64,000 nucleotides of DNA from Nemertoderma westbladi (taxonomy: Eukaryota; Animalia; Xenacoelomorpha): NCBI GenBank assembly GCA_032718475.1, contig JAUCBJ010009156.1:1-64000 (forward strand), in the 5' to 3' direction. Below are positions 10,125 to 44,600 of the stretch, piece after piece. The stretch's first letter is position 1. Every line of letters begins with the position of its first letter. Under the pieces are notes generated by a model, which ran no database searches, was not told where the DNA came from, and worked only from the letters and a program-made list of their open reading frames with translations. The position numbers and the translations under genes were made by a program.

Positions 10125-10130
10125 GATCCC

Positions 10131-13100: not shown

Positions 13101-13506
13101 CCTCCACCGCAATCAATACCCTTTTGAGTACGGCTACAGGAAGGATGAGAAGGGGATCCGAATAAACTGCATCTGCCATCTTTGCTCCGCGCTCGGGTGT
13201 CAGCTCTACAGTATCCGCACTACTGGAGCTGTCGGGCCGCTGAGAAATAAGTTCTTGGCTCGCGGGTTGTTGCTGTTCCGCTGCTTCTTGGTCCCGCTTG
13301 ACCTGAGCTCGAGTGCCTATGATAGACCTACGATGTTGGACCAGCCTAGGTTCTGATATTACTACTGGAGGGATGACCTTCCTCACAGTGGGAGGTGAAC
13401 TGAACTTAGGTGTAGACGGTTCTACACCCTTATCTGAGTCGCAGATAGTTACATCTAATAAACTGTCTGACAGGTTCTGCTTAGTATCAGACATGTTTGT
13501 TTGCAC
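10131..13506 (-). CDS. gag: Element A gag-protease polyprotein (frameshifted between 12973-13506 and 10131-13019)
   Basis: DUF1759-like KFNGDEMKWLPF...EKLRFLIECLEG, BEL triple Cys/His box CVLCDGPHRLNMC / CYNCLRRGHQRRTC / CAKCGAKHHILLH, aspartic protease ALLDSGST. Confidence 0.88.
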
Positions 13507-22536: not shown

Positions 22537-23080
22537 TGTTAGCTTATTCAATCCCGCTAACACCCCATAAAGTTATAAGCCGATAAGCAATATTGGGAGC
22601 CACGAGATTGGGTAATTAACCAACTCGTGCCATCCCAATAAGAATGGGAAGGAGAAGCACACAATGAGGGTCAGGGGCCAAACCCCTAACCCAGAGAGAA
22701 TAGGTGGAGTGAACGGGAACACTCCAAAGGGCGCCAACAAGGGTATCAACCAATCAGAGGGGGGAAAGGCATCGATTAGGTAGAGTAACAAGGCCAACCG
22801 TGCAATATAGCCACTTGGCAGTAATCATACCAATTCAGTTATCTCAGTGCAATACCGGTGCTAGATTAAGTTACATAGTTTAGCTAGGGAAGGACCGGGA
22901 CTTTAGTTACCGTATCCCGCCTTCCGTATACGACAATATTATCTCATATCTATATCTATATCTATATCTGCATATCATATTATATACGACAAACAGCACA
23001 AACTCATTCACTCCTTATACACGGCGGGGACGCGTGAACTAACAACGGATAAACCGGGATCCCTCTTGGATCCCGTCACA
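22537..23080 (+). repeat. 5' LTR of element B (3' end at 23044 ..ctaaca or 23080 ..gtcaca)
   Basis: Near-identical to 36010-36556; starts with TG and both candidate ends finish in CA. Confidence 0.85.
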
Positions 23081-23147
23081 GTAACTAAACCAGCTGCCGC
23101 CCTAGATAAACTCAGTAACCACCAGCCACCAAATCTGCAGAAGAAAG

Positions 23148-26100
23148 ATGAGTCAGTCGGGTGAGATAACACCGACGCGGACCCCGGACGAAGAGCTAAC
23201 GATCCGCGAGGCCGCAACCAGGCGATACAGGCCCACAACGCCGGACCCATCGGTAACGGGTCATCCGGCAGTTCAGGACGAGGGGGGCCTGGAACCCGAG
23301 GTCGAGCCGAGAGGAAGAGAGAGCGAGACGGAGGGAGACGGAGACGAGTCGACACAAGGCGGGGGTCGACGCACCGGTGTCGCCGGCCAGCCACAGGCCG
23401 AGGGCGACGAACGGGCCACCGAAACGGCGACGGTGGGGCCGACGGTGCGGCCCCGGACGCAGAGAGACGAAGGAGATATCGGTACCGATGTCGCCGGCCA
23501 GCCACAGGCCGAGGGCGACGGACGGCCCGCCGGAACGGCGACGGTGGGGCCGCCGGTACGACGTCGGACCCGGAGAGACGGAAGAGAGATCGGCGACGAG
23601 GACGTCGGGGTTTCTGATCGACTTCGACGGGCCTACAACGCGACCCAGAGACTACTAAAGGACGCTAAGAAGGAAGGGGCGAAGATAGACGAGGTGAGAC
23701 TGAGGAAACGACTAGGTGAGTCGGATAGACACTTTAATTACCTAATGCGTTTTGGGCAGAGAGAACTAGCCGAGGAGAGAGCGAAAGGGATTGCCAGTGA
23801 ACTGTTCGAACTATGGGAATGTGGGAGTATGGAACCTAGCGTAGCGTCAGTGTACATAGGGCCATACTTGGTCGATGCCCGGGGAGTAAAATTAGTGGGT
23901 TGGAGGGGACCAGAAGGGGGCGAATCCGAGGTTAACCCCGAGGATTCGGCCTCATCGGTCGGAGGAAGTTCCGGGAAGCGGGGGAAAGTTAGTAGATCGG
24001 GAAGGCGGAGGGAGTCCGTCGTAACCGATAAGTCTGCTACATCCTCCGCGAAAGAAAGACTGGTGAGAGAGGCAGGTGCCGCGTACCGTCTCGAGCTGAT
24101 AGAGCAAGGTCAGAGGGAAATGGATAAACGGCTAGAGGAGGGGAGAATGCGGCTAGAGAGGGAAGCGGCATTGATTAGAGAAACCGGAGAGAAGGCCGAA
24201 AGGGCTTTGAGAAGCCTTAGGGAGTATGATGAAATAGAGTTGAAGGAACAAGAGGAGCGTGTGGCGAGAGAGAAAAGTGAACGCGAGAAACGTGAGGTGA
24301 GAGAGAAAAGTGAACGCAAGGAGCGTGAGGCGAAGTGGGAAAGTGAACGAAAGGAACGTGAGGCGGAACGCGAGAAACGTGAGGCGAGGGAGGAAAGTGA
24401 ACGCAGAGAGCGTGAAGCGAGACGAAGGGAGAGCGCTAGGAGAGTAGCAGAGTTGGCTGGCCAGGACGCGCGGGAGTGTGAGAGGAGAATGGCAGAAGCT
24501 GAGCGAGAGCAAAAGGAATTAGAGAGACGCCAAAGTGAGCTTTCGGGACACAGGATTAGACGCGCGCACGAGTTGCAAATGGTGCGGGCGGGGGCGTCTG
24601 AGAGCGAGACTGGCTCGAGTATTTTAGAGGAGCCAGGGGCCGTGGATACATTTATTAATACCCCACTTACAGGGACCGCACGACAGACCCAAAACTGGTG
24701 TGACCGTACGGGCGGGGGGGGGGGGGTAATAATGATAATGGTACAGTAGACGTGGTTAATATTAATAGTACCGTATGGGATAATTCTAATCAAACCTTTA
24801 TTGCAGGAAATACTTTGCCTAGTGGTAGTAATTTAAATTTAAATCAGAATAATCCTAATATTAATGTAGAAAATAATTCTAATATTAACGTAGTTACACA
24901 AAATAATTCAAATAATTTAAATAATGATCCAAGCCCGAATTTACAAAATAATTCAAATGATTTTATTTCGAACGAACAAATTAATTCCGTTTCCAATATG
25001 GGTGCTATTAATGTAAACACGTCGGGCGTGTATGGCCAGACAGATGGGGCCCTGGTAGGCCACGTAGTTAGTAGGCCGGAAGTAGCTGGGTTAGGTAGAC
25101 CCGGCGAGGGCCTGGTAGGCCACGTAGTTGGTAGGCAGGAAGTGGCTGGGTTAGGTAAACCCGGCGAGGGCCTGGTAGGCCACGTAGTTGGTAGGCAGGG
25201 AGTGGCTGGGTTGGGTAGACCCGGCGAGGGCCTGGTAGGCCACGTAGTTGGTAGGCAGGGAGTGGCTGGGTTGGATGGACCCAGCGAGGGCCTGGTAGGC
25301 CACATAGTCGGTAGGCAGGGAGCAGAGGGCCTGGTAGGCCACGCAATAGCAGAGAGAGAGGCGGGGGTGAATAGACCCGACCATGATAGGGTTGATGTGT
25401 CGACTAGAGAGGGATATAGTAGCGGGATGAGAGATAGCGAAGTTAGATGTGGCGAGGGGGTGGGGGGCTATGAGAGCCCCACAACAGCGAGTTAGCGGCG
25501 AAAGGGGGGGGGGCAGAGAGTGTCCCACAGCCGTCAGCGGATAATGCGCGGGCCGAAATAGGTAAACCGCAACAACCGGCGACGGAAAGTAATAGGGGGA
25601 TTGCGAGTATCCCCAGCGGCGTGCGACCCAGCAGACCATACTGAGCCATAGGCCATACTGAGAGAGGCAATGTAGGCGATGGGATAGCGTGGACAACGGG
25701 ATTAAACCCGGAAGTCGCGGAATACATACCGGCGGGTAGGCCAGAAGCTGATAGGCCTATACCGGTACCAGTACAGCAGTATGACTACAGCATGCAGGGA
25801 CATAACATATACCCAGGGGAGGGGGGAATTATTGCGGATAGGTGCATGGGCCCCAACATATTAACATCAACCCCAGTACCAAACATACCGGTGGGGGGGG
25901 GACAGGGTGACATTCCCCCATCACAATATCAACAATATAACCCGATAGGAGCAAGAACAACGAGACCCTTGGATGAGAATAGGTCGTGTGACACAGAAAT
26001 ATGGAGGGGGCCGCTACCCCCGATGACATACCCAAGTCAGAGAAGATCGAGAAATAGGACGGACGAACCGCACCAGACAGGAGAAACTATACAGCACCCG

Positions 26101-29100
26101 TCGAATCCATTGGAAGCGCAGGCGATGGGGATGGCCATGTTGATCGATGCGTTGAAAACGAGGATCGAGCTACCACCCGTGGAACCATTCAAATTCGATG
26201 GGAGCAGGCCGGAAGAATATCTACAGTTTCGGCGCATGTATAGTAACGAAATACTAACAAAAAACTTGACGCAGGCGGAGTGCCTAAAGTATCTGCAAGT
26301 GTACACGGGAGGCCCAGCATACGATATCGTGAGGCAATATCAAGGAATAGAGGGCGGCTTCACGACAGCATGGCGGGCACTGGATAGGGAATACGGGCAC
26401 CCGGCCAAGATCATCAGGCAGACGCTGAGAGGCATAACATCGGGTGGCCTACAGGATAATCCCGTTAGCATTAAGACGTTCGCTCACAAAGTCGAAAAGG
26501 CGCTAATCGTGCTGAAGACGCTAGACGCGCCGTACGAGCTCAATGCGTCCAACAACATCACCACGATAGCGCAGGCACTACCAAACTGGCTGCGCAACAA
26601 GTGGAGGAAAATCGCCTTCTCCACTCGAGATAAGAAGGGCGCGGAACCGGGTTTAGAAGAAATGTCAAACTTCTTAAACTACGAGGCTGAACTAATAACT
26701 GACCCAGTCTATAGTGAAGATAGCCTGGGAAAGGGACCGAAGACAGACTACCATAAACCGAAACCAGAGCACAACACATCAAACGCATTACCGAGACTTA
26801 GGCAATCACTGCCATATGCAGCGACGCAGGGGACTGCAAGTCCACAGCTAGCCGAGGATAAGACAACACCATGGAACAGACAGGGAAACAATAACAACAT
26901 GAATAAACATAACCCCAGTACGTCCAGTAGGCTAAATCCAAACAATAAGAATAGTAGGGACTTTGGTACAAACGCAACTGTGATACGCAATGCACTGTAT
27001 AAAGAGGGCTACGACCCAAAGAGCAAATGCCAGCTACACGCAAATGCGCTTCATCAAACCATGAACTGCAGGTACTGGCAGGCGCTACCTAGGCAAGATC
27101 AGATAGATTATGCGTTCAGCAATAAAATCTGCTCACGATGTGTAATGAGTGGACATAGAGCAAGGGAGTGCAAGGAGAAGCCAATAAAATTTGGTCAAAG
27201 GAGAGGCCAAACGATGGCGACGAGCACAGTAGGGGCGAAGAAGAGGGGAACGGTGTTACTTGGAGTAGTACCAGTGCGAGTGATCGGGGAAGGCAATCGA
27301 TCAGTAACAACACTAATGCTGGTTGATAGTGGAGCTGCCTTCACATTAGTCGAGGAATGGGTGGCCGAGGAGATAGGATTGAGAACGAGGCCAAGCAGGA
27401 TGGCGGTAACAACCATCTCTAGCAAAGATTAGATCCTGGAGATGAGAACAGGACGGTGCGCAATTGCAGCAGTGGCACCAGGATGCGACTATGGGGCAAC
27501 CATCGACCCCATCCAAGTGATAGAGTCAATTAATATTAATGCCAGGCGACCAACCAACATCGAGGTCGAGCAGTATAAATTCCTGGACGACATTGACTTC
27601 TCAATCCCAGACGTGGACGTTAGGAAGGTGTCCATCATAGTAGGCATGGACTGCCCAACGGCCCATGAAAGAATGCAAACGGTCTTCGGCGAAGACAAGC
27701 AGAGTGACCCGGTGGCCATATTAACACCATTCGGGTGGACGCTGAGTGGTCCAATTAAGAGCAAGATACCATTTAGGATGTCGGAGACATCAGGATGCAT
27801 GTTCGCGGGAACAATGCAGGAAATGGGTGACGAGGGAGCAGAGGAGCAGCTTAAAAGACTGCTCAGACAGGATTTCGAGGGACTGAAAGAAACCGGAGTC
27901 GGGACCTCAGTAGAAGACAAGCAGGCTTTACAAAGCGTGGAGGAATCGATGACATGCGATGAGGGGCGGTATACTATAGGAATGGTATGGAAACTACCGA
28001 AGATACCGCTGCCCGACAATAGGGGGATGGTACTCACGAGACTCCGCAAGCTGAAACAAACACTAAAACGGAGCCCCGAGAAGAATGAGTACATCCACAG
28101 AACGATTAAGAAGTACGTCGAGAAAGGATGGGCCGTGGAGTTACCGGTCGACGAGCCGAACACGGACAGGACATATTACCTGCCACTACACGTGGCTTTA
28201 GATCCAAAAAAAGGTAAACTACGGATGGTAGTCGACGCATCGGCAAAGACCGACGGAAAGTGCTTAAACGACTACCTGTTAGAAGGCCCAAACATATACA
28301 ATTCGGGCATAGAGGTGTGACTTAGATTTAGAAATGGGAAACACGCCTTCACGTGTGACATAGAAGGCATGTTCAACCAAGTCCGTGTAACGGAAGAAGA
28401 TAGCGACAGTCAACACTTCTTATGGTATAACGGCGAGGAAGAACCGTCGATAATACCGGCATATAAGATGGTAGTACAAAACATGGGGGCCAAGTCGTCT
28501 TCATTTACGACGACTATGGCAGTGAGAGACACAGTGAAGGGGAAGGAAGATAGATACAGCAGTAGGGCCGTCGATATGATTCGACGCGGCTTCTACGTAG
28601 ACGACGGAATGGAGTCTGGAAATACGGTTAAGGAGATACTGGACACAGGGCGCGAGGTTCGCGACATCCTAAAAGGATCCGGCTTTAACCTGACCAAATT
28701 CCAATCCAGTTCGGAAGAATTTATTAAGGCGATAGAGGACAGGAGACCAGAATCGACCATGGACAATCCCACAACAGCCAAAGGGCAGGACATGGCGATT
28801 AAGAGAACAGAATCTCAACAGAAGGCATTGGGAATCGTGTGGGATAGAGAGACAGATGAACTGAAGTATCAGCTGAGCCAGGAGGGCGCAGACATCCATA
28901 CGAAGAGGGGCTATGTATCGTATATAGCAAGGATATACGATCCCCTAGGCCTAGCATCCCCATTATTAGTCACGGGAAAACAGATACTCAAGAGAGTATA
29001 CAAATTGAAAGATGAGTGAGACGTAGAGGTACCAGAGGAAATCAAGAAACAGTGGAGCAAGTGGACAGGAGACTTGGAAAAGATGGGAACATACAACATT

Positions 29101-31233
29101 CCACGGGTGTATTTCCCGGATGGGAACATGACGAATCTGGACCTACACATGTTCTCCGACGCGTCGTTGGAAGCGTACGGAGCGGCACTCTACTTAGTAC
29201 AACGAGCGGGGGCTCATAAGCCAAGACTAGCCTTTAGCAAAGCAAAGTCAACGCCACCAGATTCAGCATCAGTTCCTAAGTTAGAATTGACAGCCGCAAG
29301 ACTAGGAGTAAGAGCCACAGCCTACCTAGTGGATACTATTCCCAACATAGTAGAGACACACTACTGGACGGACTCCATGGTAGTGCTTGGTTGGCTACAC
29401 AACGAAAGAACGAGATACCCGATATTCGTCGCGAATAGAGTGGACGAAATAAGGGCGAGTACAGAACTGGAAAGGTGGCACTACTGCCCAACAGACGATA
29501 ACCCAGCGGACTTGTTGTCGAGGGGCGTGGTACGCCACACTTTCTTGAAGAAGGAAGTATTGTGGCAACATGGGCCACAATTTCTGAGCGATAAGGAAGC
29601 CTGGCCGCCGATGAGGAAGGTGGACCCGGGCTCGGAAGTAGTATCAGAAGGAGAAGAGGGAGATTCAGAGGGAGAAGAGATATACTCCCAGATGGTGAGG
29701 GAGATTAGGGACGTGCAACCAGGATGGGAACTGTGCGATAACCCGACGGATAAACTCCTCAGCTACAGTTCTAGTTGGTATAAGACCAAGAAACTAGTGG
29801 CGTACTGGAGAGCCTTCGGGAATTTCCTTGCGGGAGTTGGCAAGGACAAGAAGATCAGGACAACCATAGATCTGGAAGGAGCGGCCAAGGCAGTGATCCG
29901 CTATGAACAACGGAAGAACTATGGCGACGAGGTGGAATGCGTCGGTAACCAACAGCTCCTCCGACGGGACAGTGAGCTGATTACGCTGTCGCCACAACTC
30001 AATGACGACGGGATTCTAGTAATGAATTCTAGGGTGGGATACAACAACAGCATAGTCGTACCACCGAAACCCATCATCATTCCTACAGAATCGCCAATAG
30101 TCCACCAGATTATATGGGACTCCCACAAATCGATATTGCATGGGGGCACCAACCGAACCCTCACAGAAATAAGGAGGACCTATTGGGTCAAACAATTAAG
30201 GAAGAAGGTAAAAGCGGTAGTGGGGCAGTGCCAGACCTGCCGACGAGCGAAGAAGGAGCGAGCCATACAGGAGATGGCGCCACTACCGGCGAGTAGGGTA
30301 AGACAGCACGACCCGCCATTTACGCATTGCGGTGTGGACATGTTCAGGCCGATAAAGATCAAAGTGATGCGACACACGGAGAAACGCTACGGCATTATCT
30401 TCGTATGCAACAATACACGGGCGGTAGGGATAGAACTCGCCCAAGATGCAACCGCATCAGCGTTCATTAACGCCTTAGAAAGGTTTAGGGACCGCAAAGG
30501 TGGGACGATCGCAGTGATATACAGCAACAACGGCACCAACTTTGTGGGCGCAGAGAGTGAGATGGCAGAGGCCTTGGACATCTTGGAGGGGGAAGAAGTC
30601 AGGGCAGCCATGAGGCGACGACAAGTAAAGTGGGAGAGAAGGACGCCGTATGCACCACATACACTAGGGTGCGTCGAGAGACTGGTGGGCAGTTCAAAGC
30701 GTCTAATGACGAAGCTAATGAACACCCACATGGTCACAGAGGACGTCTTACGGACAGTACTTGCGAAGTGCGAGGGGATTATTAATAGCAGACCGCTATA
30801 TCCGGAGAATGATGACCCTGAGTCATTAGACGTGCTGACGCCTAGCCATTTTCTGATGGAAAGGCCAGCGACCATCGATATGCGGGGTGTAGACCCAGAT
30901 GACATACACTCCCGCCAAAGTTGGAAAGTCGCTAAAGCAATAAGCGCAGAGTATTGGAGGAGGTGGGTCGAGGAATACCTACCCACACTCCATAAACGAA
31001 GCAAGTGGAGGAAGTCAAACAGGGAGTTAAGAGAGGGAGATCTCGTAATCGTTACGGATGATACTATCATCAACAACCAATGGCGGTTGGCGAGAGTTGT
31101 AGGCACCTACTCCGATGAGGACGGAAGAGTCCGATCGGTAGAAGTGCGGATAGGTGGAAAGATAGGTGTGAAGGACAGAAAAACCTACAGGAGAGCTGTA
31201 GGCAAATGCTGTCTGTTAGAAGGCGCACCTTAG
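23148..31233 (+). pseudogene. Element B gag-pol polyprotein, disrupted
   Basis: Frameshifts at G-runs (about 24720 and 25505); then one frame 25792-31233 with in-frame stops at 27430, 28318 and 29017. Motifs: KFDGSRPEEY (gag), LVDSGA (protease), YYLPLH/KLRMVVDASAK/FYVDD (RT), FSDAS/VPKLEL/YWTDS/NPADLLSRG (RNase H), H-H-C-C and PSHFL/W..EYL (integrase). Confidence 0.92.
25045..25345 (+). repeat. 60-bp coding tandem repeat in the gag region (GLVGHVVGRQGVAGLGRPGE, about 5 copies)
   Basis: gggcctggtaggccacgtagt recurs every 60 bp. Confidence 0.85.
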
Positions 31234-31374
31234 TAGAGTTAGAGAAAAGTTTAGTCGTCCAAGTTTTGGACTGAGGGGGGTGGGATTGAGGGCGAGACGC
31301 CCTTCCCACGCAAAAAAATAAAATAAAATAAAATAATAGTACATGGTAGGTACGCAGTTAGTAGGCAGGAGTTA

Positions 31375-32255
31375 GTTAAGAGGTACGTAGTACCTAGTTA
31401 GTCAGTTAGTTAGAAGGTACGTAGTACCGCCAGTTAGAGAGTTAGAAGGTACGTAGTACCGCTAGTTAGTTAGAGTTAGAGGGTACGTAGTACCGCTAGT
31501 TAGTTAGAGAGTTAGAAGGTACGTAGTACCGATAGTTAATTAGAGAGTTAGAAGGTACGTAGTACCGATAGTTAGTTAGAGAGTTAGAGGGTACGTAGTA
31601 CCGCTAGTTAGTTAGAGTTAGAGGGTACGTAGCACCGCTAGTTAGTTAGAGAGTTAGAGGGTACTTAGTACCGCTAGTTAGTTAGAGTTAGAGGGTACGT
31701 AGTACCGCTAGTTAGTTAGAGAGTTAGAGGGTACGTAGTACCGCTAGTTAGTTAGAGTTAGAGGGTACGTAGTACCGCTAGTTAGTTAGAGAGTTAGAGG
31801 GTACGTAGTACCGCTAGTTAGTTAGAGTTAGAGGGTACGTAAGTACCGCTAGTTAGTTAGAGAGTTAGAAGGTACGTAGTACCACTAGTTAGTTAGAGAG
31901 TTAGAGGGTAGGTAGTACCGCTAGTTAGTTAGAGTTAGAGGGTACGTAAGTACCGCTAGTTAGTTAGAGAGTTAGAAGGTACGTAGTACCGCTAGTTAGT
32001 TAGAGTTAGAGGGTACGTAGTACCGCTAGTTAGTTAGAGAGTTAGAAGGTACGTAGTACCGATAGTTAGTTAGAGAGTTAGAAGGTACGTAGTACCGATA
32101 GTTAGTTAGAGAGTTAGAGGGTACGTAAGTACCGCTAGTTAGTTAGAGAGTTAGAGGGTACGTAAGTACGCTAGTTAGTTAGAGAGTTAGAGGGTACGTA
32201 AGTACCGTTAGTTAGTTAGAATTAGAGTTAGAGGGTACGTAGTACCGTTAGTTAG
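31375..32255. repeat. 34-37-bp minisatellite between pol and the extra ORF of element B
   Basis: gtacgtagtaccgctagttagttag(ag)agttagagg, roughly 25 copies. Confidence 0.92.
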
Positions 32256-32749
32256 AAGAGAGAGAGTAAGAGGTAAAAGGGGATATAGATATAGATATTA
32301 GTTAGCAGTTAGTAGAGAGAGGGGGGCATATGAGTACAGCTGGGTAAATCGTGTGGCCACACGACGCATACTGCTGTACTGCATAGGCCAGAATACAGAG
32401 TAGGCCAGAATGTGGATTAGAGAATAGAATAATCCATAGGCAATAGTAAGTAGTAGGACAGTAGAATCAAAGTTAAAATAGATAAATAAATAGAATAGGG
32501 CTGAAAGTTACAAAATAATGGCAACACAAGGAAAGTTATTCTAGAACATAATAAAAGTAACGGACAGAAATTGTAAATTACGCCCATTTACTAGCTTCAA
32601 AATTAATTAGTGATAATTTAGGTTAAAAAGGCGCAGTTAAGTAGGAAATAGGCCATTATCGAACCGTACAGAACATCTTAGATACATCACTCATCTGTAT
32701 TGCGCCTTGGTAAGGCACCACCTTGCAGGTGAGCGAGTGAACGTTCGGA

Positions 32750-35110
32750 ATGGCGAGTAAGTTGATCAGGAAGAGAAAGGCGAAGTCAGGAGGAAAGGAG
32801 ATACTGGTGGATTTCACCGAGAGGCATCCGGAAGAGAAGACGAGAGGATACTACGAGAGGTTGGAAAGGGGTCACGCGGCGCGAGCGCTGCAGGATCACT
32901 TCAGGGAGATGCACGAACAGCGGCTGGTCGGGACCTACGGGACGCCGTCGCTGGACAACGCGATCTTCCAACACTTCCACTACGTAGTGAAAGGGGACGA
33001 GGCGAAGTTCGGGATTCCGAAGTACCCGAGGGAATCACCGAGGAAGGACTGGAAGAGATTCATAGAGTCCGTCAACAGAGGAGGATATATGATCCTAGAC
33101 GACGAGGGAACCGTGGAAGACGAGGCGGGTTCGAGACGAGGAACGGCGGGGTCGGCCAGGACCATACTCCTACATTTGGCCGCGCCAAATGGGGACATCT
33201 TCTTATTCGATCTAGGAACGTATGGGAAGAAGGACAGGCCGAAATTAAACCGGTTACCGAAAGCGGTACAAGTCTTAGTAAGAGAGAAGTCGACGATGAA
33301 AGTGGGATCGGCGATTCGCGAGGACGCGGAGAGGATCATCGGTCCGGACGCCGCCAACCTCCTGGATATGCAGAAAGTCTTTATGGCTATGACGGCACCG
33401 GATGGGTTGGGGGTAGTCGAAAACACAGGCCAATGCGGGGCGGTGGCGATGGGCCAATTATTGGGGCTCGTATGCCACAAACCGATGGACTGGGGGAAGT
33501 TTAGGGAAGAATACGGAGCAGAACTAGCGAACTCGCTAAAGTGGGGAGCGAGACCGGGAAAGCAGGAGGTATATCAGTTCCGCAGGGGAGCGATAAAGGT
33601 ATATCAGAAGCGATATATCCTGCAGGAGGACTGGATGATGATAAGTTTGCTTAACTTATTCATGACCGTGGTTATCGAGAGGGAACCAGGGGCATTTCTG
33701 TTATCGGGATCACCCCTAAGCTACCGGAGAGCCTTTAAGACGGCCTTTGACGGTCTGGTAGACCACCCGGGGCTGAAGGGCGAGTCGGTGTACTACAACA
33801 GCCGGCATCTGGTAGACGGGGAGACAGATACACCGTATCAGAGATGGGAGCAGCTAGAGACGGATAGACGAGAAGCAAAGCGACTGGAGGAAGTCGCTAG
33901 ACGGGAGAGGATAGAAGCAGAGGAGAGGGAAGAGGAGGCCAGGACACAGAGTTACGGCTTCGAGGAACAGGCAGGCCTAGACGAACTTCATTGGACTTCA
34001 TCAGGGAGTTCGGGGGAGTCTCTAGGGCGAGAATTGGGATGGACGGTGGGATCGCCGAAACAGTCGACGTCGGGGTTGCAAACGATGCCCATACCAGCGG
34101 GCGCCGAGGGCGACCAACCGCCAAGGAAGTTAAGGGAGCTAGAGGGATGGAGAGCTACGGGCGAGAGCCAAGGCGGGAAGGGACATAGTGGATCCATCGG
34201 GATACCGGGGTTGGAGACACTGCCAGAAGAGGAGGACGACGACGACGAGTTCGGAGAGATGCCGCCCATCGAGAGGATAGGCCACTCGGACACGGACTGG
34301 GTTGGCGGAAGGGTGGTGACGGCCAGTGGGGCGAGGGCCTTCTGGAACAGATCCGGCAAGCGGACCTGGGTGCACGAGGAGCCGGCGATGGATTTCGCGG
34401 GGAGCACCATCAGGTTGGGCGAGCAACCGGGGACGGCACCACGGGTAGTATTCGGGGAGACGATGCCCGAGAGGGGCGGAGAGATCGACGTAGATAGAGA
34501 GACCAACGTAGAGAAGTTCGCCTACCAGCGACTCCACAGACCGCGGAGATCGCTTGGGACGAAAGACGAGGTGGGACGGGAGACATTGGTACTCGGCTGC
34601 GACTACTGTGGGAGACAGACCCATCGGGAAAGGAGCTGCCTATACCGGTTCCAAAAGGGAACCTTTTGTCTCTACTGCCGAGAACCAAGCCACAGGATGG
34701 GGGCGTGTCCACGGTTGCATAATCGATGTACAAAGTGCCACTTTCGGGGACACTACGGACGCGAGTGCGACTGGATGAACGACGAGGAGAAGTTCACAAG
34801 ATTCGAGGAGTGGGCCGACGTCGGGGCCATGACGCGCCAGCGCATGAAGGCCCAGGAGTTCAAGTGGGGTTTCTTCCTTATCAATCAGGAGACTCACATG
34901 GAGATCATAAAGCGGAGGCTACCGTTTACCTACCAAGAGGTAGCAACGGCGGCGTCGTACGCCGGAGTGATGAACACGCAAAGGTATTTGGACAGGTGGA
35001 CGCCAGAGAACCGAAGGGAGTTTAGGGATTTCTTGGCGGAGCACGTACCACAAGGCAATGAAAATGATCCTATGGGACGCCACCAGAGGGAGACAACCGG
35101 GCCACTCTGA
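32750..35110 (+). CDS. Element B extra ORF: DEDD 3'-5' exonuclease-like (WRN/EXD/MUT-7 type) domain plus three CCHC zinc knuckles, 786 aa
   Basis: ILDDEG (ExoI-like), LLHLA..IFLFDL, LPKAVQVLV..KVGSAIRED (ExoII-like), LLDMQ, YQKRYILQED (ExoIII-like); CDYCGRQTHRERSC, CLYCREPSHRMGAC, CTKCHFRGHYGREC; lies inside the LTR pair. Confidence 0.75.
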   Translation: MASKLIRKRKAKSGGKEILVDFTERHPEEKTRGYYERLERGHAARALQDHFREMHEQRLVGTYGTPSLDNAIFQHFHYVVKGDEAKFGIPKYPRESPRKDWKRFIESVNRGGYMILDDEGTVEDEAGSRRGTAGSARTILLHLAAPNGDIFLFDLGTYGKKDRPKLNRLPKAVQVLVREKSTMKVGSAIREDAERIIGPDAANLLDMQKVFMAMTAPDGLGVVENTGQCGAVAMGQLLGLVCHKPMDWGKFREEYGAELANSLKWGARPGKQEVYQFRRGAIKVYQKRYILQEDWMMISLLNLFMTVVIEREPGAFLLSGSPLSYRRAFKTAFDGLVDHPGLKGESVYYNSRHLVDGETDTPYQRWEQLETDRREAKRLEEVARRERIEAEEREEEARTQSYGFEEQAGLDELHWTSSGSSGESLGRELGWTVGSPKQSTSGLQTMPIPAGAEGDQPPRKLRELEGWRATGESQGGKGHSGSIGIPGLETLPEEEDDDDEFGEMPPIERIGHSDTDWVGGRVVTASGARAFWNRSGKRTWVHEEPAMDFAGSTIRLGEQPGTAPRVVFGETMPERGGEIDVDRETNVEKFAYQRLHRPRRSLGTKDEVGRETLVLGCDYCGRQTHRERSCLYRFQKGTFCLYCREPSHRMGACPRLHNRCTKCHFRGHYGRECDWMNDEEKFTRFEEWADVGAMTRQRMKAQEFKWGFFLINQETHMEIIKRRLPFTYQEVATAASYAGVMNTQRYLDRWTPENRREFRDFLAEHVPQGNENDPMGRHQRETTGPL

Positions 35111-36009
35111 GGGGCCACCGGCGAAGCGATATCGGGCACTAATAACACCAGCGCCCAAGGAGCCAACGACCGGGATCAGCAAGGAGGTGGCGGCGAAGGT
35201 CCGAAAGCAGAAAGCGGATCCCAGAGGAACGGTGGTAACCAAGAAACGACCCAGGGAAGAGGACGCCAGGGGGAACTATCCCCAGAGGAACAGATAGGTT
35301 CCCAGAGCCGAGGGAGAGAGACTGAGACTTGGACGTGGTGCGCCTGGAAGGCGCCGCGTGGGACGTACGAACTATTAAGTACAAATTTAATTAATGCAAA
35401 TAATCATATAAGTGCAATTTGTATGTACGTACGTAGTAATTAGTAATCTACGAATATATACGCTCGAGTAAGTACTATAGTCATACAACCTTTCTCAATT
35501 AGCTACTGGGACTGGGGGATAACTGACTATGGCACTATGGACGAGACACCAGACAATTTCACACTTCTTGAGTGCGACGGCACAAGAGGGGGGGGGGGAG
35601 ATTCGTCAGAAGGGATGAGGTAGTCAGAGTAGGGTTGAGGGACAGAGTAGTAGGTGCGAAGTGCGGAGAGAGTGCGGACGCAATTCTAGTGTGGGGGGGG
35701 AGAATAAGAGGCTGAGTGAGGGACGAGGAGGTCCGAGTGTATGAGAGAGTTAGGATGAGAGTGAAGAAGAGATAGGGCGGAAGTGTTGGGGAAACAAAAG
35801 TTGCGTGAGAGGTGAGCGCGATCGGCCCGACATGAGACGCCAGGCACACAGGGTAGCGTTATCATACCCATAGGGAGCGGCCTGGAAAGCCGGCTCCGAG
35901 AGAAAAGAATTCCACCCCACACCCGATACTAGATCGGGATCCAGCGGGATTGTAGCGCACTTTTTTGGTTGATGCTATCTTCTTACCGGGAAGATAGCAT
36001 GGGGGGGAG

Positions 36010-36556
36010 TGTTAGCTTATTCAATCCCGCTAACACCCCATAAAGTTATAAGCCGATAAGCAATATTGGGAGCCACGAGATTGGGTAATTAACCAACTCG
36101 TGCCATCCCAATAAGAATGGGAAGGAGAAGCACACAATGAGGGTCAGGGGCCAAACCCCTAACCCAGAGAGAATAGGTGGAGTGAACGGGAACACTCCAA
36201 AGGGCGCCAACAAGGGTATCAACCAATCAGAGGGGGGAAAGGCATCGATTAGGTAGAGTAACAAGGCCAACCGTGCAATATAGCCACTTGGCAGTAATCA
36301 TACCAATTCAGTTATCTCAGTGCAATACCGGTGCTAGATTAGGTTACATAGTTTAGCTAGGGAAGGACCGGGACTTTAGTTACCGTATCCCGCCTTCCGT
36401 ATACGACAATATTATCTCATATCTATATCTATATCTATATCTGCATATCCAAATATTATATACGACAAACAGCACAAACTCATTCACTCCTTATACACGG
36501 CGGGGACGCGTGAACTAACAACGGATAAACCGGGATCCCTCTTGGATCCCGTCACA
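36010..36556 (+). repeat. Second (shared) LTR of element B
   Basis: Preceded by the PPT and followed by a leader and gag rather than flanking DNA. Confidence 0.85.
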
Positions 36557-36638
36557 GTAACTAAATCGAGCTGCTGCCCTAGTTAAACTGTAACAACTGC
36601 TGCCCTAGCTAGCTGAACTCCACCGATCACCAACCGAG

Positions 36639-37510
36639 ATGAGTCAGTCGGGAGAGATAACACCGACGCGGACCCCGGACGAAGAGCTAACGATCCGCGA
36701 GGCCGCAACCAGGCGATATAGGCCCACGACGCCGGACCCATCGGTAACGGGTCATCCGGCAGTTCAGGACGAGGGGGGCCTGGAACCCGAGGTCGAGCCG
36801 AGAGGAAGAGAGAGCGAGACGGAGGGAGACGGAGACGAGTCGACACAAGGCGGGGGTCGACGCACCGGTGTCGCCGGCCAGCCACAGGCCGAGGGCGACG
36901 AACGGGCCACCGAAACGGCGACGGTGGGGCCGACGGTGCGGCCCCGGACGCAGAGAGACGAAGGAGATATCGGTACCGATGTCGCCGGCCAGCCACAGGC
37001 CGAGGGCGACGGACGGCCCGCCGGAACGGCGACGGTGGGGCCGCCGGTACGACGTCGGACCCGGAGAGACGGAAGAGAGATCGGCGACGAGGACGTCGGG
37101 GTTTCTGATCGACTTCGACGGGCCTACAACGCGACCCAGAGACTACTAAAGGACGCTAAGAAGGAAGGGGCGAAGATAGACGAGGTGAGACTGAGGAAAC
37201 GACTAGGTGAGTCGGATAGACACTTTAATTACCTAATGCGTTTTGGGCAGAGAGAACTAGCCGAGGAGAGAGCGAAAGGGATTGCCAGTGAACTGTTCGA
37301 ACTATGGGAATGTGGGAGTATGGAACCTAGCGTAGCGTCAGTGTACATAGGGCCATACTTGGTCGATGCCCGGGGAGTAAAATTAGTGGGTTGGAGGGGA
37401 CCAGAAGGGGGCGAATCCGAGGTTAACCCCGAGGATTCGGCCTCATCGGTCGGAGAAAGTTCCGGGAAGCGGGGGAAAGTTAGTAGGTCGGGAAGGCGGA
37501 GGGAGTCCAT
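36639..37510 (+). pseudogene. Truncated second copy of the element B gag N-terminus
   Basis: Nearly identical to 23148-24019, breaking off at ...RRRES. Confidence 0.9.
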
Positions 37511-38457
37511 CGAAACCCTAATTCAAAGTGGAAATGGAGGCCCAAAACCTTAAGTAAAACTGTCATGTAACCCCAACCTTAAATATTTTGGATCCTAAAT
37601 TCCACAAAATTTCTTAGATTAGAGCATGGGACTTTAAGGTTATAGGGTTACTAATGACTGTTTTAATTAGGGTTTGGGCCTGACCAACTAACCCAACCAC
37701 AAAAATAAACGCCTAGGACACCGGCAGCGTTCTTAATGCAGCTGCTTCCAGCATGTCCATTATAGATAGATAATTGAAACCTGAAAAAGGTGGACAGTCC
37801 AATCACTAATAAATAGCATTGCTTTAATACGTTTCTGATTGGTCAGGCTATTATCTATGTTTTTTGTGCATGTGTCCAGTCCACCTTTCACCTTTTTCAA
37901 ACACACATCTTATTCCCAATTATGTAACTAAGAAAGCGAAAACTTGAAAAAGGTGGACAGACCAATTGCTACAAACTGCTTTACATAATACGTTTCTGAT
38001 TGGTCTGTCCGTTGTCCATGTTTTCTGTACATAGTCCACCTTTTTCAAACACCCCCTGTCAGCCTGTATACACCCTGTACACTCTGGACTACAAACCCGC
38101 CAGCTGACAAGCAACAGAAGAACCTACTGCAGTAGTGCAGTACTGGCTACTGCTGTACTGCAACTGCACAACTCTGCAACTGTAGTAGTACTGTAGTACA
38201 GTAGTAGGCCTACTGACAGACTGAACTGCTGAACTATGCGATAATGAATAATTAATTTGGAGATAACAGAAAAACAGGATAAACTCGTAACTCTCTAATT
38301 TATGTTCCCAGTTCCAGTTGGCCGTACCGTGCCGGTACAGCGGTACTGTCTGACTGTTATGTAGCAGTCAGACAGCAAGACAATACCGATACAAAATACC
38401 AGCTGAACAGTGCGGCTGGCTTCGATAGCCTAACACCTGAATTCCGCAAGTGGTAAG

Positions 38458-38634
38458 ATGGAGATTTTGTTGCGGATTCTATGTTTGTTACTGTTTAGTA
38501 ATTGCCAATTTAATTGTCAGTCGAACAACAACGCCGTCGCCAATGATTCATCGAGTTTGTATTCGGTTGATATGGGAGGTTTATCTGGCGCTGGTTATTA
38601 TGTCGGAGTATCGATTGGAACGCCACCGCAAAAG
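38458..38634 (+). CDS. BACE1: BACE exon 1
   Basis: MEILLRILCLLLFS...GYYVGVSIGTPPQK|gtaggt, phase 0. Confidence 0.88.
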
Positions 38635-41600
38635 GTAGGTCAGTAGGTAGGCCTACCCAGGGCTGGCAAAGTAGGTTTTTGTAAACCTAGGTTTTTGTAG
38701 GTTTTTGTCAAAAACCTAAAATTTGAAAAAAGCCTAAAACTAGGTTTTTAGGTTTTTGATTTTTCATCTTTAATTTGCCTTTTAATTTCATTTGTACACT
38801 CAAAACAACTGAACAAGTATACTTGCATTGTCAGCTGATGAGTTCGTTCCAGTCCAGTCCAGTTGTCTTGTCACTACTGACAAGCTGACTGTTGCAAGGG
38901 TCCTACTAATTACCCCAACCTACCACAATCTACCCCAACCTACCACAATCTACCGCAATCTACCCCAACAATTCGATAGAGGCATTTAATTACCACAATA
39001 TTATTTTACATTGGTATCTAATTACCACAATATACAGAACTCAAGTGTCTATTTACCACAAGACTACACTGCATCTAATTACCACAATATTATTTTTTAT
39101 TTTACATTGGCATCTAATTACCACAATATATAGAACGCAAGTGTCAGAGTGTCTATTTACCACAAGACTACACTGCATCTAATTACCACAATATTATTTT
39201 ACAATGGCATCTAATTACCACAATATACAGAACTCAAGTGTCTATTTACCACAAGACTACACTGCATCTAATTACCACAATATTATTTTACATTGGCATC
39301 TAATTACCACAATATACAGAACTCAGTGTCTATTTACCACAAGACTACACTGCATCTAATTACCACAATATTATTTTACATTGGCATCTAATTACCACAA
39401 TATACAGAACTCAAGTGTCTATTTACCACAAGACTACACTGCATCTAATTACCACAATATTATTTTACATTGGCATCTAATTACCACAATATACAGAACT
39501 CAAGTGTCTATTTACCACAAGACTACACTGCATCTAATTACCACAATATTATTTTACATTGGCATCTAATTACCACATTATACAGAACTCAAAATAATGT
39601 AAAAATGTAAAATATAAAATGTAAAATAATATTGTGGTAATTAGATGCTGTGTAGTCTTGTGGTAAATAGACACTTGAGTTCTGTATATTGTGGTAATTA
39701 GATGCCAATGTAAAATAATATTGTGGTAATTAGATGCAGTGTAGTCTTGTGGTAAATAGACACTTGCGTTCTGTATATTGTGGTAATTAGACACCAATGT
39801 AAAATAATATTGTGGTAATTAGATGCAGTGTAGTCTTGTGGTAAATAGACACTTGCGTTCTGTATATTGTGGTAATTAGACGCCATTGTAAAATAATATT
39901 GTGGTAATTAGATGCCTCTATCGAATTGTTGGGGTAGATTGCGGTAGATTGTGGTAGGTTGGGGTAGATTGTGGTAGGTTGGGGTAATTAGTAGGACCGA
40001 CAAAAACCTAGCGAAAACCTTCAAAAACCTGCAAAAACCTTCCAAAAACCTACAAAAACCTTGCAAAAACCTAAAACCTAAAAATTTTTCTGAAAAACCT
40101 ATGGTTTTTGCCAGCCCTGGGCCTACCTACAGACAGAGGTGCAGCCAATTGCAGAATTGGTGCAGGCGCAGCCGCAGGACTGCAGCCCTGCAGGGGTGGG
40201 CTCTGGGCTGAGGTGGGGTGGGTTGGCAGGTTGGGTTGATGTTCATGTCCGATTCCGAAATTCCACAAACATTGTCTCATCATTGACCAATACGTGAATT
40301 GTAGTGGTAGATATGACGCGCTGACGCGACGTCTAAGAAGGTGAGTGAATGTTTACTTTGAACTTTATACTGTTATACCGGTAGACAACAATAACTTAGA
40401 TTGGCCTATTAACGCTACGGAAACTGAGTGAAGGAATAAAATCAAAGAGCCTTCCTGCAATGTAGACATTTATCAACTTCAAGAAAGCATTCGTCTGAGA
40501 TTGACTCCATCCATAGCTGCATAGAATTTCCAGCAAAATGCTTGAAATTTTAAGAGCTTAGGCCCTATGAATTATCAGATGCAATCGTTGCTGACATTCG
40601 ATTATTATATTGTGATACAGACAGAAGCTCAGGTACTTTCACCAGATGGTGAAACTAGGTTCTTCTCAATCCTGGCTGGTCTACTGCAACTGCTGCAAGG
40701 CGACACATTGGCTTCGTTACCATTTAGTGTTTATAATTGTAAAGGGTTATGAATGAACCATCAGTCTGCTTTTTAATACGAGTTCAGATGCACAGCTTCT
40801 ACTGAACAAAGTGGAAAGGGCTGCTAAGGAGGTTGGATTGCATAAAGAATACATGACTTTTAATGTTTCATGGAAACTATTTCACCAAACTTTATAATAC
40901 AGTAATAATCCACTAAGTGAAGTTTATGACTTCCAGTACCTTGCTTTATAAATAAAAAAAGAAAACTTTAGTTAGGAAAGCAAAGGCATGGAAGCGAACG
41001 GTTATGAGACCAACTTGAAAGGGATACTGAACTTGGGAGAAAGGAAAGTGCAACTATGGAGAATCGGGAAGCCTGGAAGGATCTCATTTCCACTGAACTA
41101 GATTGCTCGACGTAGTAGTATAGGCCCCCAGATTCCATGAAATTCTGTATAGGTCTATACATTGGATTGGTGCTTGAATTTATATGCAGTTTGGCAAACA
41201 GTGTAAAAATTTATGGTTATTAATTGATTATGTATCCGTTTTTTTTTAATTTAGAGAGATAGCCTGGTTTGTTTGTTTATCATACTGCTTAAAGCAGAAA
41301 ATGTCAACACATTTTTTATGTTAAAAAAGTATCACTAACTTTAAAATCTTATGCACGTTATGCTGATATGTATATTGAAAGATTGAAATATTATATTTGA
41401 AACTCAAATAATGCGATACGTGTTTCGGTTATTGGCGTAGATTAATGGGATATCAATACACTTATACATTACTCAATTAATTTACTCAATTACTGTATTT
41501 ACTTTCATGTACTTTAATTTTTCTATTTCTTCCCTCATCACAACTGTCTGTAATTATTCCAACTATACCGAGAAGGAATAGCGTTATTGCACACAATCCG

Positions 41601-44600
41601 CAAATTATGAACAAAGCCGGAATATGGAGGGATGGAGCTGATTGAGTTTTACTTCGTGGGGGTTCATATTTATTTTCACTCCGAATAATAGATACGTTAA
41701 ACTTAATTGTTGTGTGTCTCTCTCCATCGACGTTCACGATTCGGTCTCCTTTAATTGTTGCTGAGTACACTCCTTCAACCGTAAACTTTCTTTCCAATAC
41801 TCTATTATTGCTCCCATAATTAATTAGTTCACCATCGGGCGCGTACCATAAGAATTGCACCGGACTGGCAGTCATCACGTCATCCAGACTGTTTCCATGG
41901 AAACCCCACTTGATGATGACTTTTGATGTAGTGCTTGCGAATACCTGATTCGATTTACTATCAAGTGATCGTGTTTGAATACCGCGGGCATCCTGAATTA
42001 GTTTCAGTTCTAACTCAGTTACAAGCAGATTTGTTTTTACTACCGGTACTTTAAAATATTGCGTCTCCATCTCACAAACATATTGACCTTTCACTTCTTT
42101 CCTTGTATCTAAGTTAAATACAGATTCGTTACTAACAGATTTCCTTGCGTCATTGATGTAATACCATTTAACTTTTGGTTCCGGATTTGCTCTATCGTAA
42201 TTACATTGTAAAGTGAAAACTCCTGTGATGTTAGATTTCTTAGTTTCATTGCTGTATTGATATGTAACATTATGTGTCATCAGAATAAATATGGCGGAGA
42301 TGAGGTTTCCCTTTGTGTCAGTTATGTTGATGTTGTTTGGGGGAAAGACAGCGGTAACGGTTACAGAGCAGTGTGGAGTTGGTAGAAGAGGTGGGAGAGC
42401 AACATGCTTGGCGACACAAGTAAAGGTTAAATTCCTTCGCAAGGTGATTGAGTCGATGTTATGGGAAGTGTTTGGGATACTGAAATACAATTGGGAAGCT
42501 TTTCCTTCTGGTGTTTTTACATCATGTTTTCTGATTGTAGAGAATTCTATTTGGTCTGTGTTTCCGGTGAATGCATCTTCTATATCGTTTTTATTTAATT
42601 TTGGCAGGATTTTATCCGAATTGTATAAAAAGCAATTCACCGGCCTCCAAGTATCCCTCATGTACGGAACGATACAGGTTGTAACGTTATCCGCAGCACT
42701 TTCTCCGATGTAACTTATAGGACAAATACACCTAAGTTGCCAGGATTGAGGCACGTAATTGAGACAGTCCACACCATTGCTACTATGCTTCATTGTTTGG
42801 ATCGTGCATGGGTCTAGTGTTCTCATTAGTCTTTTTGAAGTCCGCTGAGAATGATTAAAGTAATTTACATAAGATATATCACTAGTGAGGTTTTTGAATA
42901 CACACTTATTATCAGAATGGTAGTATGCTTTAACAATAGATTTCCTTTTTTCAGCAACCTTAGACGGGGCGTTGTACACTATTTCTGCCAGTTCCCGCGT
43001 CACTTCATTGATAAACTCATCAAACGATATAACCCCCCCATTTATGTCTTTATAACCCCTGTTAATTTCTAGAATATTACTTCTCTGCGTTAACGATGCC
43101 TCATCTGGTATAATTTTCCTATGGGACAGCTTGCTGTTGCAAGGGGAAGAACTTTTACCTTCATTACCACCCTGGTCATGAAACTGCCGAGTTATCCAGT
43201 TCAGTTTATCGTCGTACCTGAACAATATCTTCATGCAGAATGTTTCGTTAGTTCCGAATACTGCCAAAGTATAGGAGTCGTTGTTTAGTGCGTCGTCCAG
43301 GCAACTATCATGAACTAAATAGCGAGCCCCTATAGCGAAGCCGAAGGCAGATGTTTCGTATTTAAAATTAGAGTAGTTGGTTGATAACATGATGTTGTTT
43401 ATGTTGTTGATGTAGCTGTCGATCTCATCTCGAACACTCCACCGATTGGATTCATCACCACATTCGGAAAGTCCCTCATCGATAATAAAGTGGTCAAGAA
43501 AGGATTTATCTGCACCCACATGCATTACACATGTCGTTATGTCGTAAGGGTATGTTTTGAACTTTGCTGAGGTGTGATATTGCCTAGTGAGTCCAGATGG
43601 TTGACCTTTGTGTGTGATTTTATCTGTAACGTTTGGACACTTGAATATTATAGGTGATGTTCCATCAGTTCCATCCAAACTAAAATACCAATCCATTCCT
43701 GATAACTTTTCCTCGCAACCATTTTGGATTTTTTCCCCATTTGGTTTCCGTAGACCAGAAATTAATATTATGCTTACTAGCAACTCGTAAATCATTGTAT
43801 ATATATAATTTAGTGTAGGTTTCTGGTTTATATTATAATAATCAATGACTGGAACAATTGTAATCGATATACACCATGTCCCATAATATAGTGTCGTAAT
43901 TCAGTGACACCCCCCCCCCCCCCCCCTCCCCCTAATTTTTCTACAAATCTTAATGAGATTGCATGAAATTTGAAACAGAGATAGTTTCACCTCCCGACCA
44001 CTGACTGGGTGAGCCAGAATTTTTATTTTTAGAATCTTTAGCTACAAGCGTTTAAAAAAGTGTCTCCAGCGATATTACACCAGTTACACCGCAGTTATTC
44101 TTCTACCTTATAGCTGTTTGTTGGTACCAATGAAAAGCTGGCCATGCAAGGATTCCAAATATGTAACACAATTTGAATTTCGTTGAAAAATAGCTGAGAT
44201 ATGGGCGTTCAAATGTTGCATGGTTTTGCAACGACGCGAGGCTATTTTATTCTATTTAATAAATAAACCATGTTCTGGAACATTTTTTAAATGTAGGAAT
44301 AGCTACTTAATAGTATGATTAAAGATGTAATGCATTGTTGCCCAGCTACGTTTTGGATAAACAAAATATTCCAGATTGTGATGTATTTATTAAACAGAAT
44401 AAATAGCCTCGCGTAGGTGCATAACCATGCAAAATTTGAACGCCCATATCTCAGCTATTTTTCAACGAAATTCAAATTGTGTTACATATTTGGAATCCCT
44501 GCACGGCCAGCTTTCCACTAGTACCAACAAATCACTAAAAAAGTTTGAAGAATAACTGCGGTGTAACTGGTGCAATATCGACGAAGACACTTTTTTTAGA

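What the first reader, a model, noticed from the sequence alone, without database searches (positions are those of the whole stretch)
32750..35110. BEL/Pao retrotransposon carries an intact exonuclease plus zinc-knuckle gene where env would be
Seen: a 786-aa uninterrupted ORF between integrase and the 3' LTR, with no signal peptide or TM segment, so it is not env. A candidate splice acceptor (ccttgcag, 32721-32728) sits just before the ATG. Nucleotides ~33080-33640 encode ILDDEG, LLHLA, IFLFDL, LP..V..LV...KVGSAIRED, LLD and Q..YILQED, in the order and spacing of the DnaQ-fold DEDDy exonucleases of the WRN-exo/EXD1-2/MUT-7(Nibbler) group. Three CX2CX4HX4C knuckles follow at ~34598-34770, closely spaced as in Air1/2 or ZCCHC7-type RNA adaptors. 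Known: MUT-7/Nibbler and EXD1 act in small-RNA and piRNA pathways. Inference: this may be a transposon-encoded RNA-trimming or anti-silencing factor, or a cDNA/RNA processing aid. The ORF is intact while pol has 3 stops, a catalytic mutation and upstream frameshifts, which hints at selection or co-option.
Basis: partly seen in the sequence, partly recalled or inferred. Interest (0 to 1): 0.9.

Follow-up and report, generated by a model that had tools for sequence, protein, structure and literature searches.

The report
BEL/Pao retrotransposon exonuclease-knuckle third gene
A retrovirus-like jumping gene in this animal DNA carries, after its usual genes, an intact third gene for a protein predicted to fold as a nucleic-acid-trimming enzyme joined to three zinc knuckles, and because dozens of distant relatives keep this gene in the same place it likely helps the element handle its own RNA.

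Summary
The 786-aa ORF is real: intact, no membrane segment, three CCHC knuckles, and an N-terminal DEDDy exonuclease fold. A family profile hits EXD2 at E 2e-15; the predicted model matches Nibbler, Egalitarian and TbRND. It is a fixed third gene of a broad BEL/Pao group. Among metagenome loci with at least 3 kb upstream, 29 of 31 have BEL pol sequence before it. Pol and ORF3 trees agree (11 of 11 strong ORF3 splits). It is under purifying selection (30 of 38 listed variants synonymous). Host co-option is not supported: the pol stops are private to this copy. One 13-locus clade has lost the catalytic residues yet keeps the domain, and one lineage lacks the domain. RNA binding may therefore be the core job, though my searches were anchored on the knuckles. 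Best guess: a helper that binds, and where active trims, the element's own RNA (0.45); rival: anti-piRNA factor (0.3). No activity or expression was shown. DEDDy ORF3s are known from bdelloid LTR elements; I found none reported for BEL/Pao or with this knuckle domain. Verdict: new variant, interest 0.62.

The parts
22537..23046 (+). 5' LTR (starts TG; 3' end uncertain, about 23020-23046)
   Evidence: 1 substitution and one 3-nt indel versus the 3' LTR; repeat found
23053..23075 (+). Hairpin containing a TGG-starting PBS-like 9-mer (23067-23075); not directly after a CA LTR end
   Evidence: sequence
23148..27432 (+). gag and protease region, broken across frames in this copy
   Evidence: DUF1759, aspartyl protease
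27433..31233 (+). BEL/Pao pol (RT, RNase H, integrase). Stops at 27430, 28318, 29017 and an altered integrase motif at 30526, all private to this copy
   Evidence: Peptidase_A17, RVT_1, Integrase_H2C2, DUF5641
31374..32262 (+). 36-nt tandem array, 25 copies, in the pol-ORF3 spacer
32721..32734 (+). Candidate splice site (acceptor-like CAG followed by donor-like GTGAG); unverified
   Evidence: not supported
32750..35110 (+). ORF3, 786 aa, intact
32972..33682 (+). DEDDy-fold exonuclease domain (aa about 75-311): D117, E119, D192, Y289, E293
33956..34579 (+). Predicted disordered linker (aa about 403-610), after a long helix at aa 362-402
   Evidence: pLDDT mostly under 50
34598..35044 (+). Triple CCHC knuckle plus helical domain (aa 617-765), predicted compact, with no solved match
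35935..35943 (+). 9-nt exact complement of the PBS-like site, in the 3' UTR about 60 nt before the PPT
36001..36009 (+). Polypurine tract
   Evidence: sequence
36010..36522 (+). 3' LTR, shared with the next unit
36523..37517 (+). Second tandem unit, truncated about 0.9 kb into gag
   Evidence: 97% repeat 22537-24026 / 36010-37517

Best explanation
ORF3 is a long-standing third gene of one group of BEL/Pao retrotransposons, and its protein likely binds the element's own RNA through a triple zinc-knuckle domain and, in lineages that keep the catalytic residues, likely trims nucleic-acid 3' ends during the element's replication. Shown: the gene's position after pol in distant relatives, its co-inheritance with pol, purifying selection, and loss of catalytic residues in one clade that keeps the domain. 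Predicted: the DEDDy fold and a compact knuckle domain. Inferred: that it is expressed from a separate message, binds RNA, is an active nuclease in this family (D-E-D-y-E, with Glu in place of the last Asp), and acts on the element's own RNP. Candidate substrates are genomic RNA ends, primer or RNA-DNA intermediates. The model follows TbRND, where CCHC fingers hold RNA for a DEDD active site.
For: Fold: EXD2 at E 2e-15 to 6e-15; Foldseek hits Egalitarian, Nibbler EXO, TbRND and EXD2 at E under 1e-3, EXD1 at 1.4e-3; 24 of 30 Atlas hits were DNA_pol_A_exo1 clusters. Context: BEL RNase H/integrase sequence upstream on the same strand in 29 of 31 loci with at least 3 kb upstream and 38 of 47 with at least 1 kb; 12 of 12 long polyproteins tested carry Peptidase_A17 and DUF5641. 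Trees of 30 rows share 18 of 27 splits, with no strongly supported conflict; random maximum 4. Selection: 30 of 38 listed ORF variants are synonymous against 0.33 expected, p 1e-8; exo dN/dS 0.08-0.52 in 15 of 18 pairs, the other 3 saturated. Catalysis is dispensable in some lineages: 23 of 78 rows lack both ExoI acids, they include a 13-row pol clade at SH-aLRT 100, and L047/L059 have the knuckle domain with no detected exo domain. TbRND fingers bind RNA and are needed for cleavage (PMC7797062, passages). Tight co-inheritance fits a benefit to the encoding element (inference).
Against: No biochemical or expression evidence: only contigs were laid, and the single possible RNA run is a guess. 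All collection searches were anchored on the knuckle domain (best stretches; pattern), so exo-only ORF3s and close relatives lacking ORF3 could not be seen. Most BEL/Pao elements replicate without such a gene (own knowledge); the second BEL remnant in this window shows no ORF3 hit. The pol RNase H motifs look intact in the translation, so no lost function needs replacing. Nothing here identifies the substrate, and the same data fit a silencing counter-measure. Several loci (e.g. L039, L068, L021, L065) have the two domains in different ORFs.
Confidence: 0.45

Rival explanations
1. ORF3 is an anti-silencing factor. Active forms would trim or destroy piRNAs, siRNAs or tRNA fragments aimed at the element; dead forms would act as decoys for host adaptors such as EXD1.
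For: Structural neighbours include Nibbler and EXD1. EXD1 is an inactive nuclease acting as an RNA adaptor in piRNA biogenesis (PMC4712191, abstract), which parallels the dead clade. ORF3 branches are longer than pol branches for the deep rows. Similar exonuclease-plus-knuckle third genes are noted for Gypsy elements in unchecked earlier findings.
Against: The closest solved sequence is EXD2, not MUT-7 or EXD1. No pair shows dN/dS near or above 1, though whole-domain averages hide site-level selection. A general trans-acting suppressor would be open to free-riders, yet ORF3 tracks pol (inference).
Confidence: 0.3
2. ORF3 acts on DNA: it trims cDNA ends or clears RNA-DNA hybrids or by-products before integration, or hides them from host sensing.
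For: EXD2 digests many substrates including RNA-DNA hybrids, and can also coat and protect them (PMC13425236, abstract). Dada DNA transposons carry a DEDDy domain proposed to process 3' ends (PMC3706591, passages).
Against: CCHC knuckle arrays and most structural neighbours are RNA-directed. A clade with lost catalytic residues still has long intact gag-pol ORFs, so trimming is not universally needed.
Confidence: 0.15
3. This copy's ORF3 has been co-opted by the host while the rest of the element decays.
For: ORF3 is intact while pol has three stops.
Against: The stops are private to this copy; P(no stop in ORF3)=0.28; the LTRs are nearly identical; thousands of divergent contigs cover ORF3; relatives have intact gag-pol plus ORF3.
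Confidence: 0.03
4. ORF3 is a passenger: a host gene fragment or an unrelated nested insertion.
For: No Pfam family, and no named relative beyond 'hypothetical protein'. L012 has about 9 kb and L008/L032/L072 about 1.2-2.2 kb upstream without detected pol.
Against: Fixed position, congruent trees and purifying selection.
Confidence: 0.02

Closest known systems
DEDDy ORF3 of bdelloid rotifer LTR retrotransposons Juno and Vesta, and of Athena/Terminon elements (Rodriguez, Kenefick, Arkhipova 2017, PMC5408684)
   Same: A separate third ORF after pol, DEDDy-type 3'-5' exonuclease, no TM segment; the same roles were proposed (3'-end processing, silencing); no activity shown.
   Different: Here the carrier is BEL/Pao. 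The motif is DEDD or DEDE rather than DEED. A triple-CCHC domain is attached, where the paper notes only a Cys-His-Cys motif in some ORFs. The gene tracks pol over deep divergence, whereas in rotifers it was gained at least twice and swapped between element types. I did not compare the sequences directly.
Trypanosoma brucei RNase D (TbRND; PDB 7c42-7c4c; PMC7797062)
   Same: DEDD exonuclease followed by CCHC fingers and no HRDC domain; both halves hit by the family profile and by Foldseek.
   Different: A cellular mitochondrial guide-RNA trimmer with four extended fingers and a short linker. The exo match is weak (domain E 0.24-2.3), so the likeness is probably convergent architecture. Here there is a long disordered linker and a predicted compact three-knuckle helical domain.
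EXD2 (PDB 6k17) and the WRN-exo/EXD1/Nibbler/Egalitarian group
   Same: Best sequence match to the exo domain, including the strand and helix before ExoI (E 2e-15); same fold.
   Different: ORF3 has no membrane segment, is fused to knuckles and is carried on a retrotransposon. A single solved sequence per family cannot prove which host gene was the donor.
Dada transposases with a DEDDy domain (Kojima and Jurka 2013, PMC3706591)
   Same: Transposon-borne DEDDy exonuclease.
   Different: DNA transposon; the domain is inserted inside the transposase.

Membership tests
BEL/Pao LTR retrotransposons | Pao-type gag-PR-RT-RH-IN with DUF1759, Peptidase_A17, DUF5641 | tested here: met
   (window); 12 of 12 long polyproteins carry Peptidase_A17 and DUF5641
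BEL/Pao LTR retrotransposons | Two LTRs, PPT, PBS | tested here: inconclusive
   LTRs and PPT present; the window's PBS-like site is not next to a CA end, while relatives are canonical; no target-site duplication seen by eye
DEDDy (DnaQ-like) 3'-5' exonucleases | RNase H-like DnaQ fold | tested here: met
   (predicted model and profile)
DEDDy (DnaQ-like) 3'-5' exonucleases | ExoI D-x-E, ExoII D, ExoIII Y-x3-D | tested here: inconclusive
   The window has D117, E119, D192 and Y289 but E293 at the last site; 36 of 78 rows have all four acids and 6 have the Glu variant
DEDDy (DnaQ-like) 3'-5' exonucleases | Metal-dependent 3'-5' exonuclease activity | not testable with these tools
   needs an assay
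Retrotransposon env | Signal peptide and TM anchor | tested here: not met
Rrp6/RNase D with HRDC | HRDC domain after the exonuclease | tested here: inconclusive
   No Pfam HRDC hit; Rrp6 matched only at E 0.23-0.85
Bdelloid Juno/Vesta DEDDy ORF3 pool | Clusters with the rotifer element ORFs in a tree | not tested
   rotifer sequences were not fetched
Air1/2, ZCCHC7-type knuckle adaptors | Homology beyond generic knuckles | tested here: inconclusive
   Atlas hits at or under 0.85 only; no PDB match
Host co-opted TE gene | Single fixed copy outliving its element family | tested here: not met

The most novel reading that the evidence does not exclude
A whole branch of BEL/Pao retrotransposons captured an EXD2-like nuclease, fused it to a triple-knuckle domain of unsolved fold, and uses it against host small-RNA silencing: active versions destroy guide RNAs, and dead versions act as decoys, with a primer-mimic in the 3' UTR shielding the PBS in that clade. 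It would be a protein suppressor of piRNA or tRNA-fragment silencing encoded by an animal retrotransposon.
Probability: 0.25. Interest if true: 0.9.

Novelty: new variant of a known kind. Interest (0 to 1): 0.62.

Why it matters
BEL/Pao third ORFs are usually assumed to be env (own knowledge). Here a conserved non-env gene family, unnamed in Pfam and in the sources checked, has travelled with pol across elements only 25-33% identical. It offers a natural series of intact, catalytically dead and exo-less versions in which to separate nuclease from RNA-binding functions. Together with the rotifer ORF3s it suggests retrotransposons repeatedly recruit DEDD nucleases. It makes directly testable whether animal retrotransposons encode RNA-processing helpers or suppressors of piRNA silencing.

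Tried and rejected
Pfam on the ORF and single-sequence PDB search gave nothing. Word-index homologue searches found 0, 0 and 6 hits. No whole genome is held. In viral contigs the knuckle pattern had 0 matches and the pol query no confirmed relative, so I have no ORF3-less outgroup, the trees are unrooted, and gain versus loss of the exo domain in L047/L059 is unresolved. No RNA holder was listed; X6 is only guessed to be RNA, so it says nothing on expression or splicing. The splice-acceptor scan gave p<0.05 in 6 of 25 loci under a weak mononucleotide shuffle, one being the pol stop codon; I treat it as inconclusive. The knuckle domain has no solved match: Foldseek best E 1.2, VIA best Z 2.9 (rmsd 4.6, 85 aligned) of 48,161 chains; this does not prove a new fold. 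A VIA Z-score for the exo domain was never obtained. Summed contig depth of ORF3 versus pol was 0.71 and 0.93, but the tool states that depth is not copy number, so I do not use it. Each element's own PBS against its 3' UTR was significant in only 2 of 10, and the window test there started one base off (p 0.35). Host taxon was not determined. In one search the ExoII site was mis-indexed; one search corrects it. Co-option and passenger readings were rejected as described.

Full report
OBSERVATION. The ORF at 32750-35110 is an uninterrupted 786 aa, with no hydrophobic segment and three canonical CX2CX4HX4C knuckles. Upstream lie BEL/Pao gag and pol (DUF1759, Peptidase_A17, RVT_1, Integrase_H2C2, DUF5641), then a 1.5-kb spacer holding a 36-nt array. 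Downstream lie a PPT and an LTR that differs from the 5' LTR by one substitution and a 3-nt indel. The repeat continues into a truncated second gag, so this is a young tandem insertion in an animal genome. The host taxon was not determined.

THE PROTEIN. Pfam and single-sequence PDB searches are blank. A phmmer search of 1.84 billion representatives gave 74 hits, all best matched in the knuckle region. Many are 500-1000 aa proteins with the same layout: N-terminal domain, low-complexity linker, triple knuckle followed by a conserved F-E-x-x-A-x-x-G-x-x-T...W-G-F segment. Profiles of these hit the EXD2 exonuclease domain at E 6e-15 and 2e-15; WRN (3e-4 to 3e-3), Egalitarian (7e-4), mut-7 (0.1) and Rrp6 (0.23-0.85) are far weaker. 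The AlphaFold model (mean pLDDT 64.5; mostly 80-90 in the exo core) matches Egalitarian, Nibbler EXO, TbRND and EXD2 by Foldseek at E under 1e-3. With the query left out, the family profile still scores it at 89 bits against 3.5 for shuffles. By alignment the catalytic positions are D117, E119, D192, Y289 and E293. The Glu at the last site is shared with five relatives, so activity is plausible but unproven. The knuckle domain alone folds confidently (pLDDT 84.5, pTM 0.79) and has no solved match.

IT BELONGS TO THE ELEMENT. 117 of 120 hit the knuckle profile. The 109 domains extracted form 96, 67 and 35 clusters at 90, 70 and 50% identity. BEL RNase H/integrase sequence lies upstream on the same strand in 38 of 47 loci with at least 1 kb before the exo domain, and in 29 of 31 with at least 3 kb; the median gap is 677 nt. 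That profile was built from the window and 21 of these loci, first found by BLAST, and one hit (L022) is only a remnant. The exceptions are mostly short contigs or the subfamily with long N-terminal extensions; L012 is a decayed copy with no pol in 9 kb, and L008/L032/L072 (one sequence) show none in up to 2.2 kb. Eleven loci have a gag-pol ORF over 2000 codons followed by a separate ORF3; 12 of 12 long polyproteins scanned are Pao-type. For 30 rows, the pol and ORF3 trees share 18 of 27 splits, all 11 strongly supported ORF3 splits and 13 of 15 strong pol splits, with no strong conflict. These were quick searches, unrooted, and the window copy is a long branch whose position is unsure.

SELECTION, AND WHY NOT CO-OPTION. 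In public DNA runs, 11,127 and 6,298 contigs lay on the 4.3-kb ORF3/LTR stretch at 80-100% identity. Of the 40 best-supported differences listed (575 more not shown), 38 fall in the ORF and 30 are synonymous, p 1e-8 against a transition-only expectation. The 12 indels listed (69 more not shown) all fall outside it. Between families, exo dN/dS is 0.08-0.52 in 15 of 18 pairs, with synonymous sites near saturation. The three pol stops and the integrase change are absent from over 99% of laid depth in three runs from two samples, so this is a damaged copy of a family whose other copies lack these lesions.

CATALYSIS IS OPTIONAL. Of 88 aligned exo rows (four dropped beforehand as duplicates, fragment or ambiguous; some protein and locus rows are near-duplicates), 78 cover all five sites. 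Of these, 36 have all four acids, 6 have the Glu variant, 23 lack both ExoI acids, and 13 are otherwise changed. A 13-row pol clade is uniformly degenerate, yet its exo domain shows dN/dS 0.09-0.49 in 8 pairs. L047 and L059 lack a detectable exo domain. This suggests nucleic-acid binding as the shared function, as in EXD1 (PMC4712191, abstract). The caveat is serious: every search was anchored on the knuckles, so their invariance is partly by construction. The dead clade also carries an anti-PBS copy in its 3' UTR; this is one event and only a lead.

MECHANISM. I favour a helper acting on the element's own RNP (0.45): knuckles bind element RNA, and the exo domain trims 3' ends where active, as in TbRND (PMC7797062, passages). 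Anti-silencing (0.3) and DNA or hybrid processing (0.15; EXD2, PMC13425236, abstract) are live rivals. Position, inheritance and selection are shown; the fold is predicted; expression, binding, activity and substrate are inferred. The splice acceptor is unsupported.

WHAT IS KNOWN. DEDDy ORF3s were described in bdelloid Juno and Vesta elements (PMC5408684; I read parts 1-3 of 5, abstract to discussion, not the figure legends or supplement) and are restated in PMC6431247 and PMC6338049 (passages). Dada transposons carry a DEDDy domain (PMC3706591, passages). PMC10886601 (abstract, passages) describes tRNA-like sequence inside LTRs that is not complementary to the PBS, which is a different arrangement. 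Ten full-text searches (most seen as listings only) showed no BEL/Pao exonuclease ORF3. Repbase, subscription journals and supplements were not seen and could hold such annotations. Unchecked earlier notes describe Gypsy elements with an Rrp6-like exo-HRDC-knuckle ORF3; this is a parallel case, not support, and no look-alike of this protein was found.

VERDICT. Real, selected and element-borne; a new variant of a known kind. Interest 0.62, rising to 0.9 if it proves to be a suppressor of small-RNA silencing (probability about 0.25).

Noticed in passing
3' UTRs of L027, L033, L034, L037, L038, L040, L054, L060, L065, L068, L069, L070, L080; window 35935-35943: A copy of the primer-complementary (anti-PBS) sequence lies 38-133 nt before the PPT. 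14 of 37 UTRs match the reverse complement of L039's 18-nt PBS at p<0.05 (sense control 4 of 37). 13 of the 14 belong to the catalytically dead clade, three of them assigned by 70% clusters. This is one clade, so one event. The window has its own 9-nt complement.
   Followed up: partly
L022:5187-10931: Apparent internally deleted element: two LTR-like repeats around a 396-aa ORF, a short integrase-end remnant and an ORF3 broken by one stop, with no RT.
   Followed up: partly
L047:3341-6529, L059:6880-9648: ORF3s of 923-1063 codons with the knuckle domain but no detected exonuclease domain; sisters in the pol tree.
   Followed up: partly
L043:1226-5476, L051:5002-9657 (-), L005:40-4815 (-): ORF3 variants with N-terminal extensions of about 900 residues before the exo domain.
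   Followed up: no
window 6200-13530 (-): A second, decayed BEL/Pao element (DUF1759 gag, pol remnants) with no ORF3 profile hit.
   Followed up: partly
window 41486-43900 (-): Intronless 804-codon ORF with an Ig-like domain and a hydrophobic C-terminal stretch, next to long inverted repeats at 43926-44729 and 46144-47157.
   Followed up: no
window 1966-3507 (+) and 61168-63669 (-): Intronless host-like genes: a LisH/WD40 protein (SMU1-like by recall) and a DUF4708 protein.
   Followed up: no
window 38460-38640 and 50488-50991 (+): Exon-like pieces that read as an aspartyl protease (BACE-like by recall).
   Followed up: no
window 51810-57000, 48140-49910, 38899-39998: 44-nt satellite of over 100 copies, a second short-unit array, and an 89-nt array in inverted orientation.
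   Followed up: no
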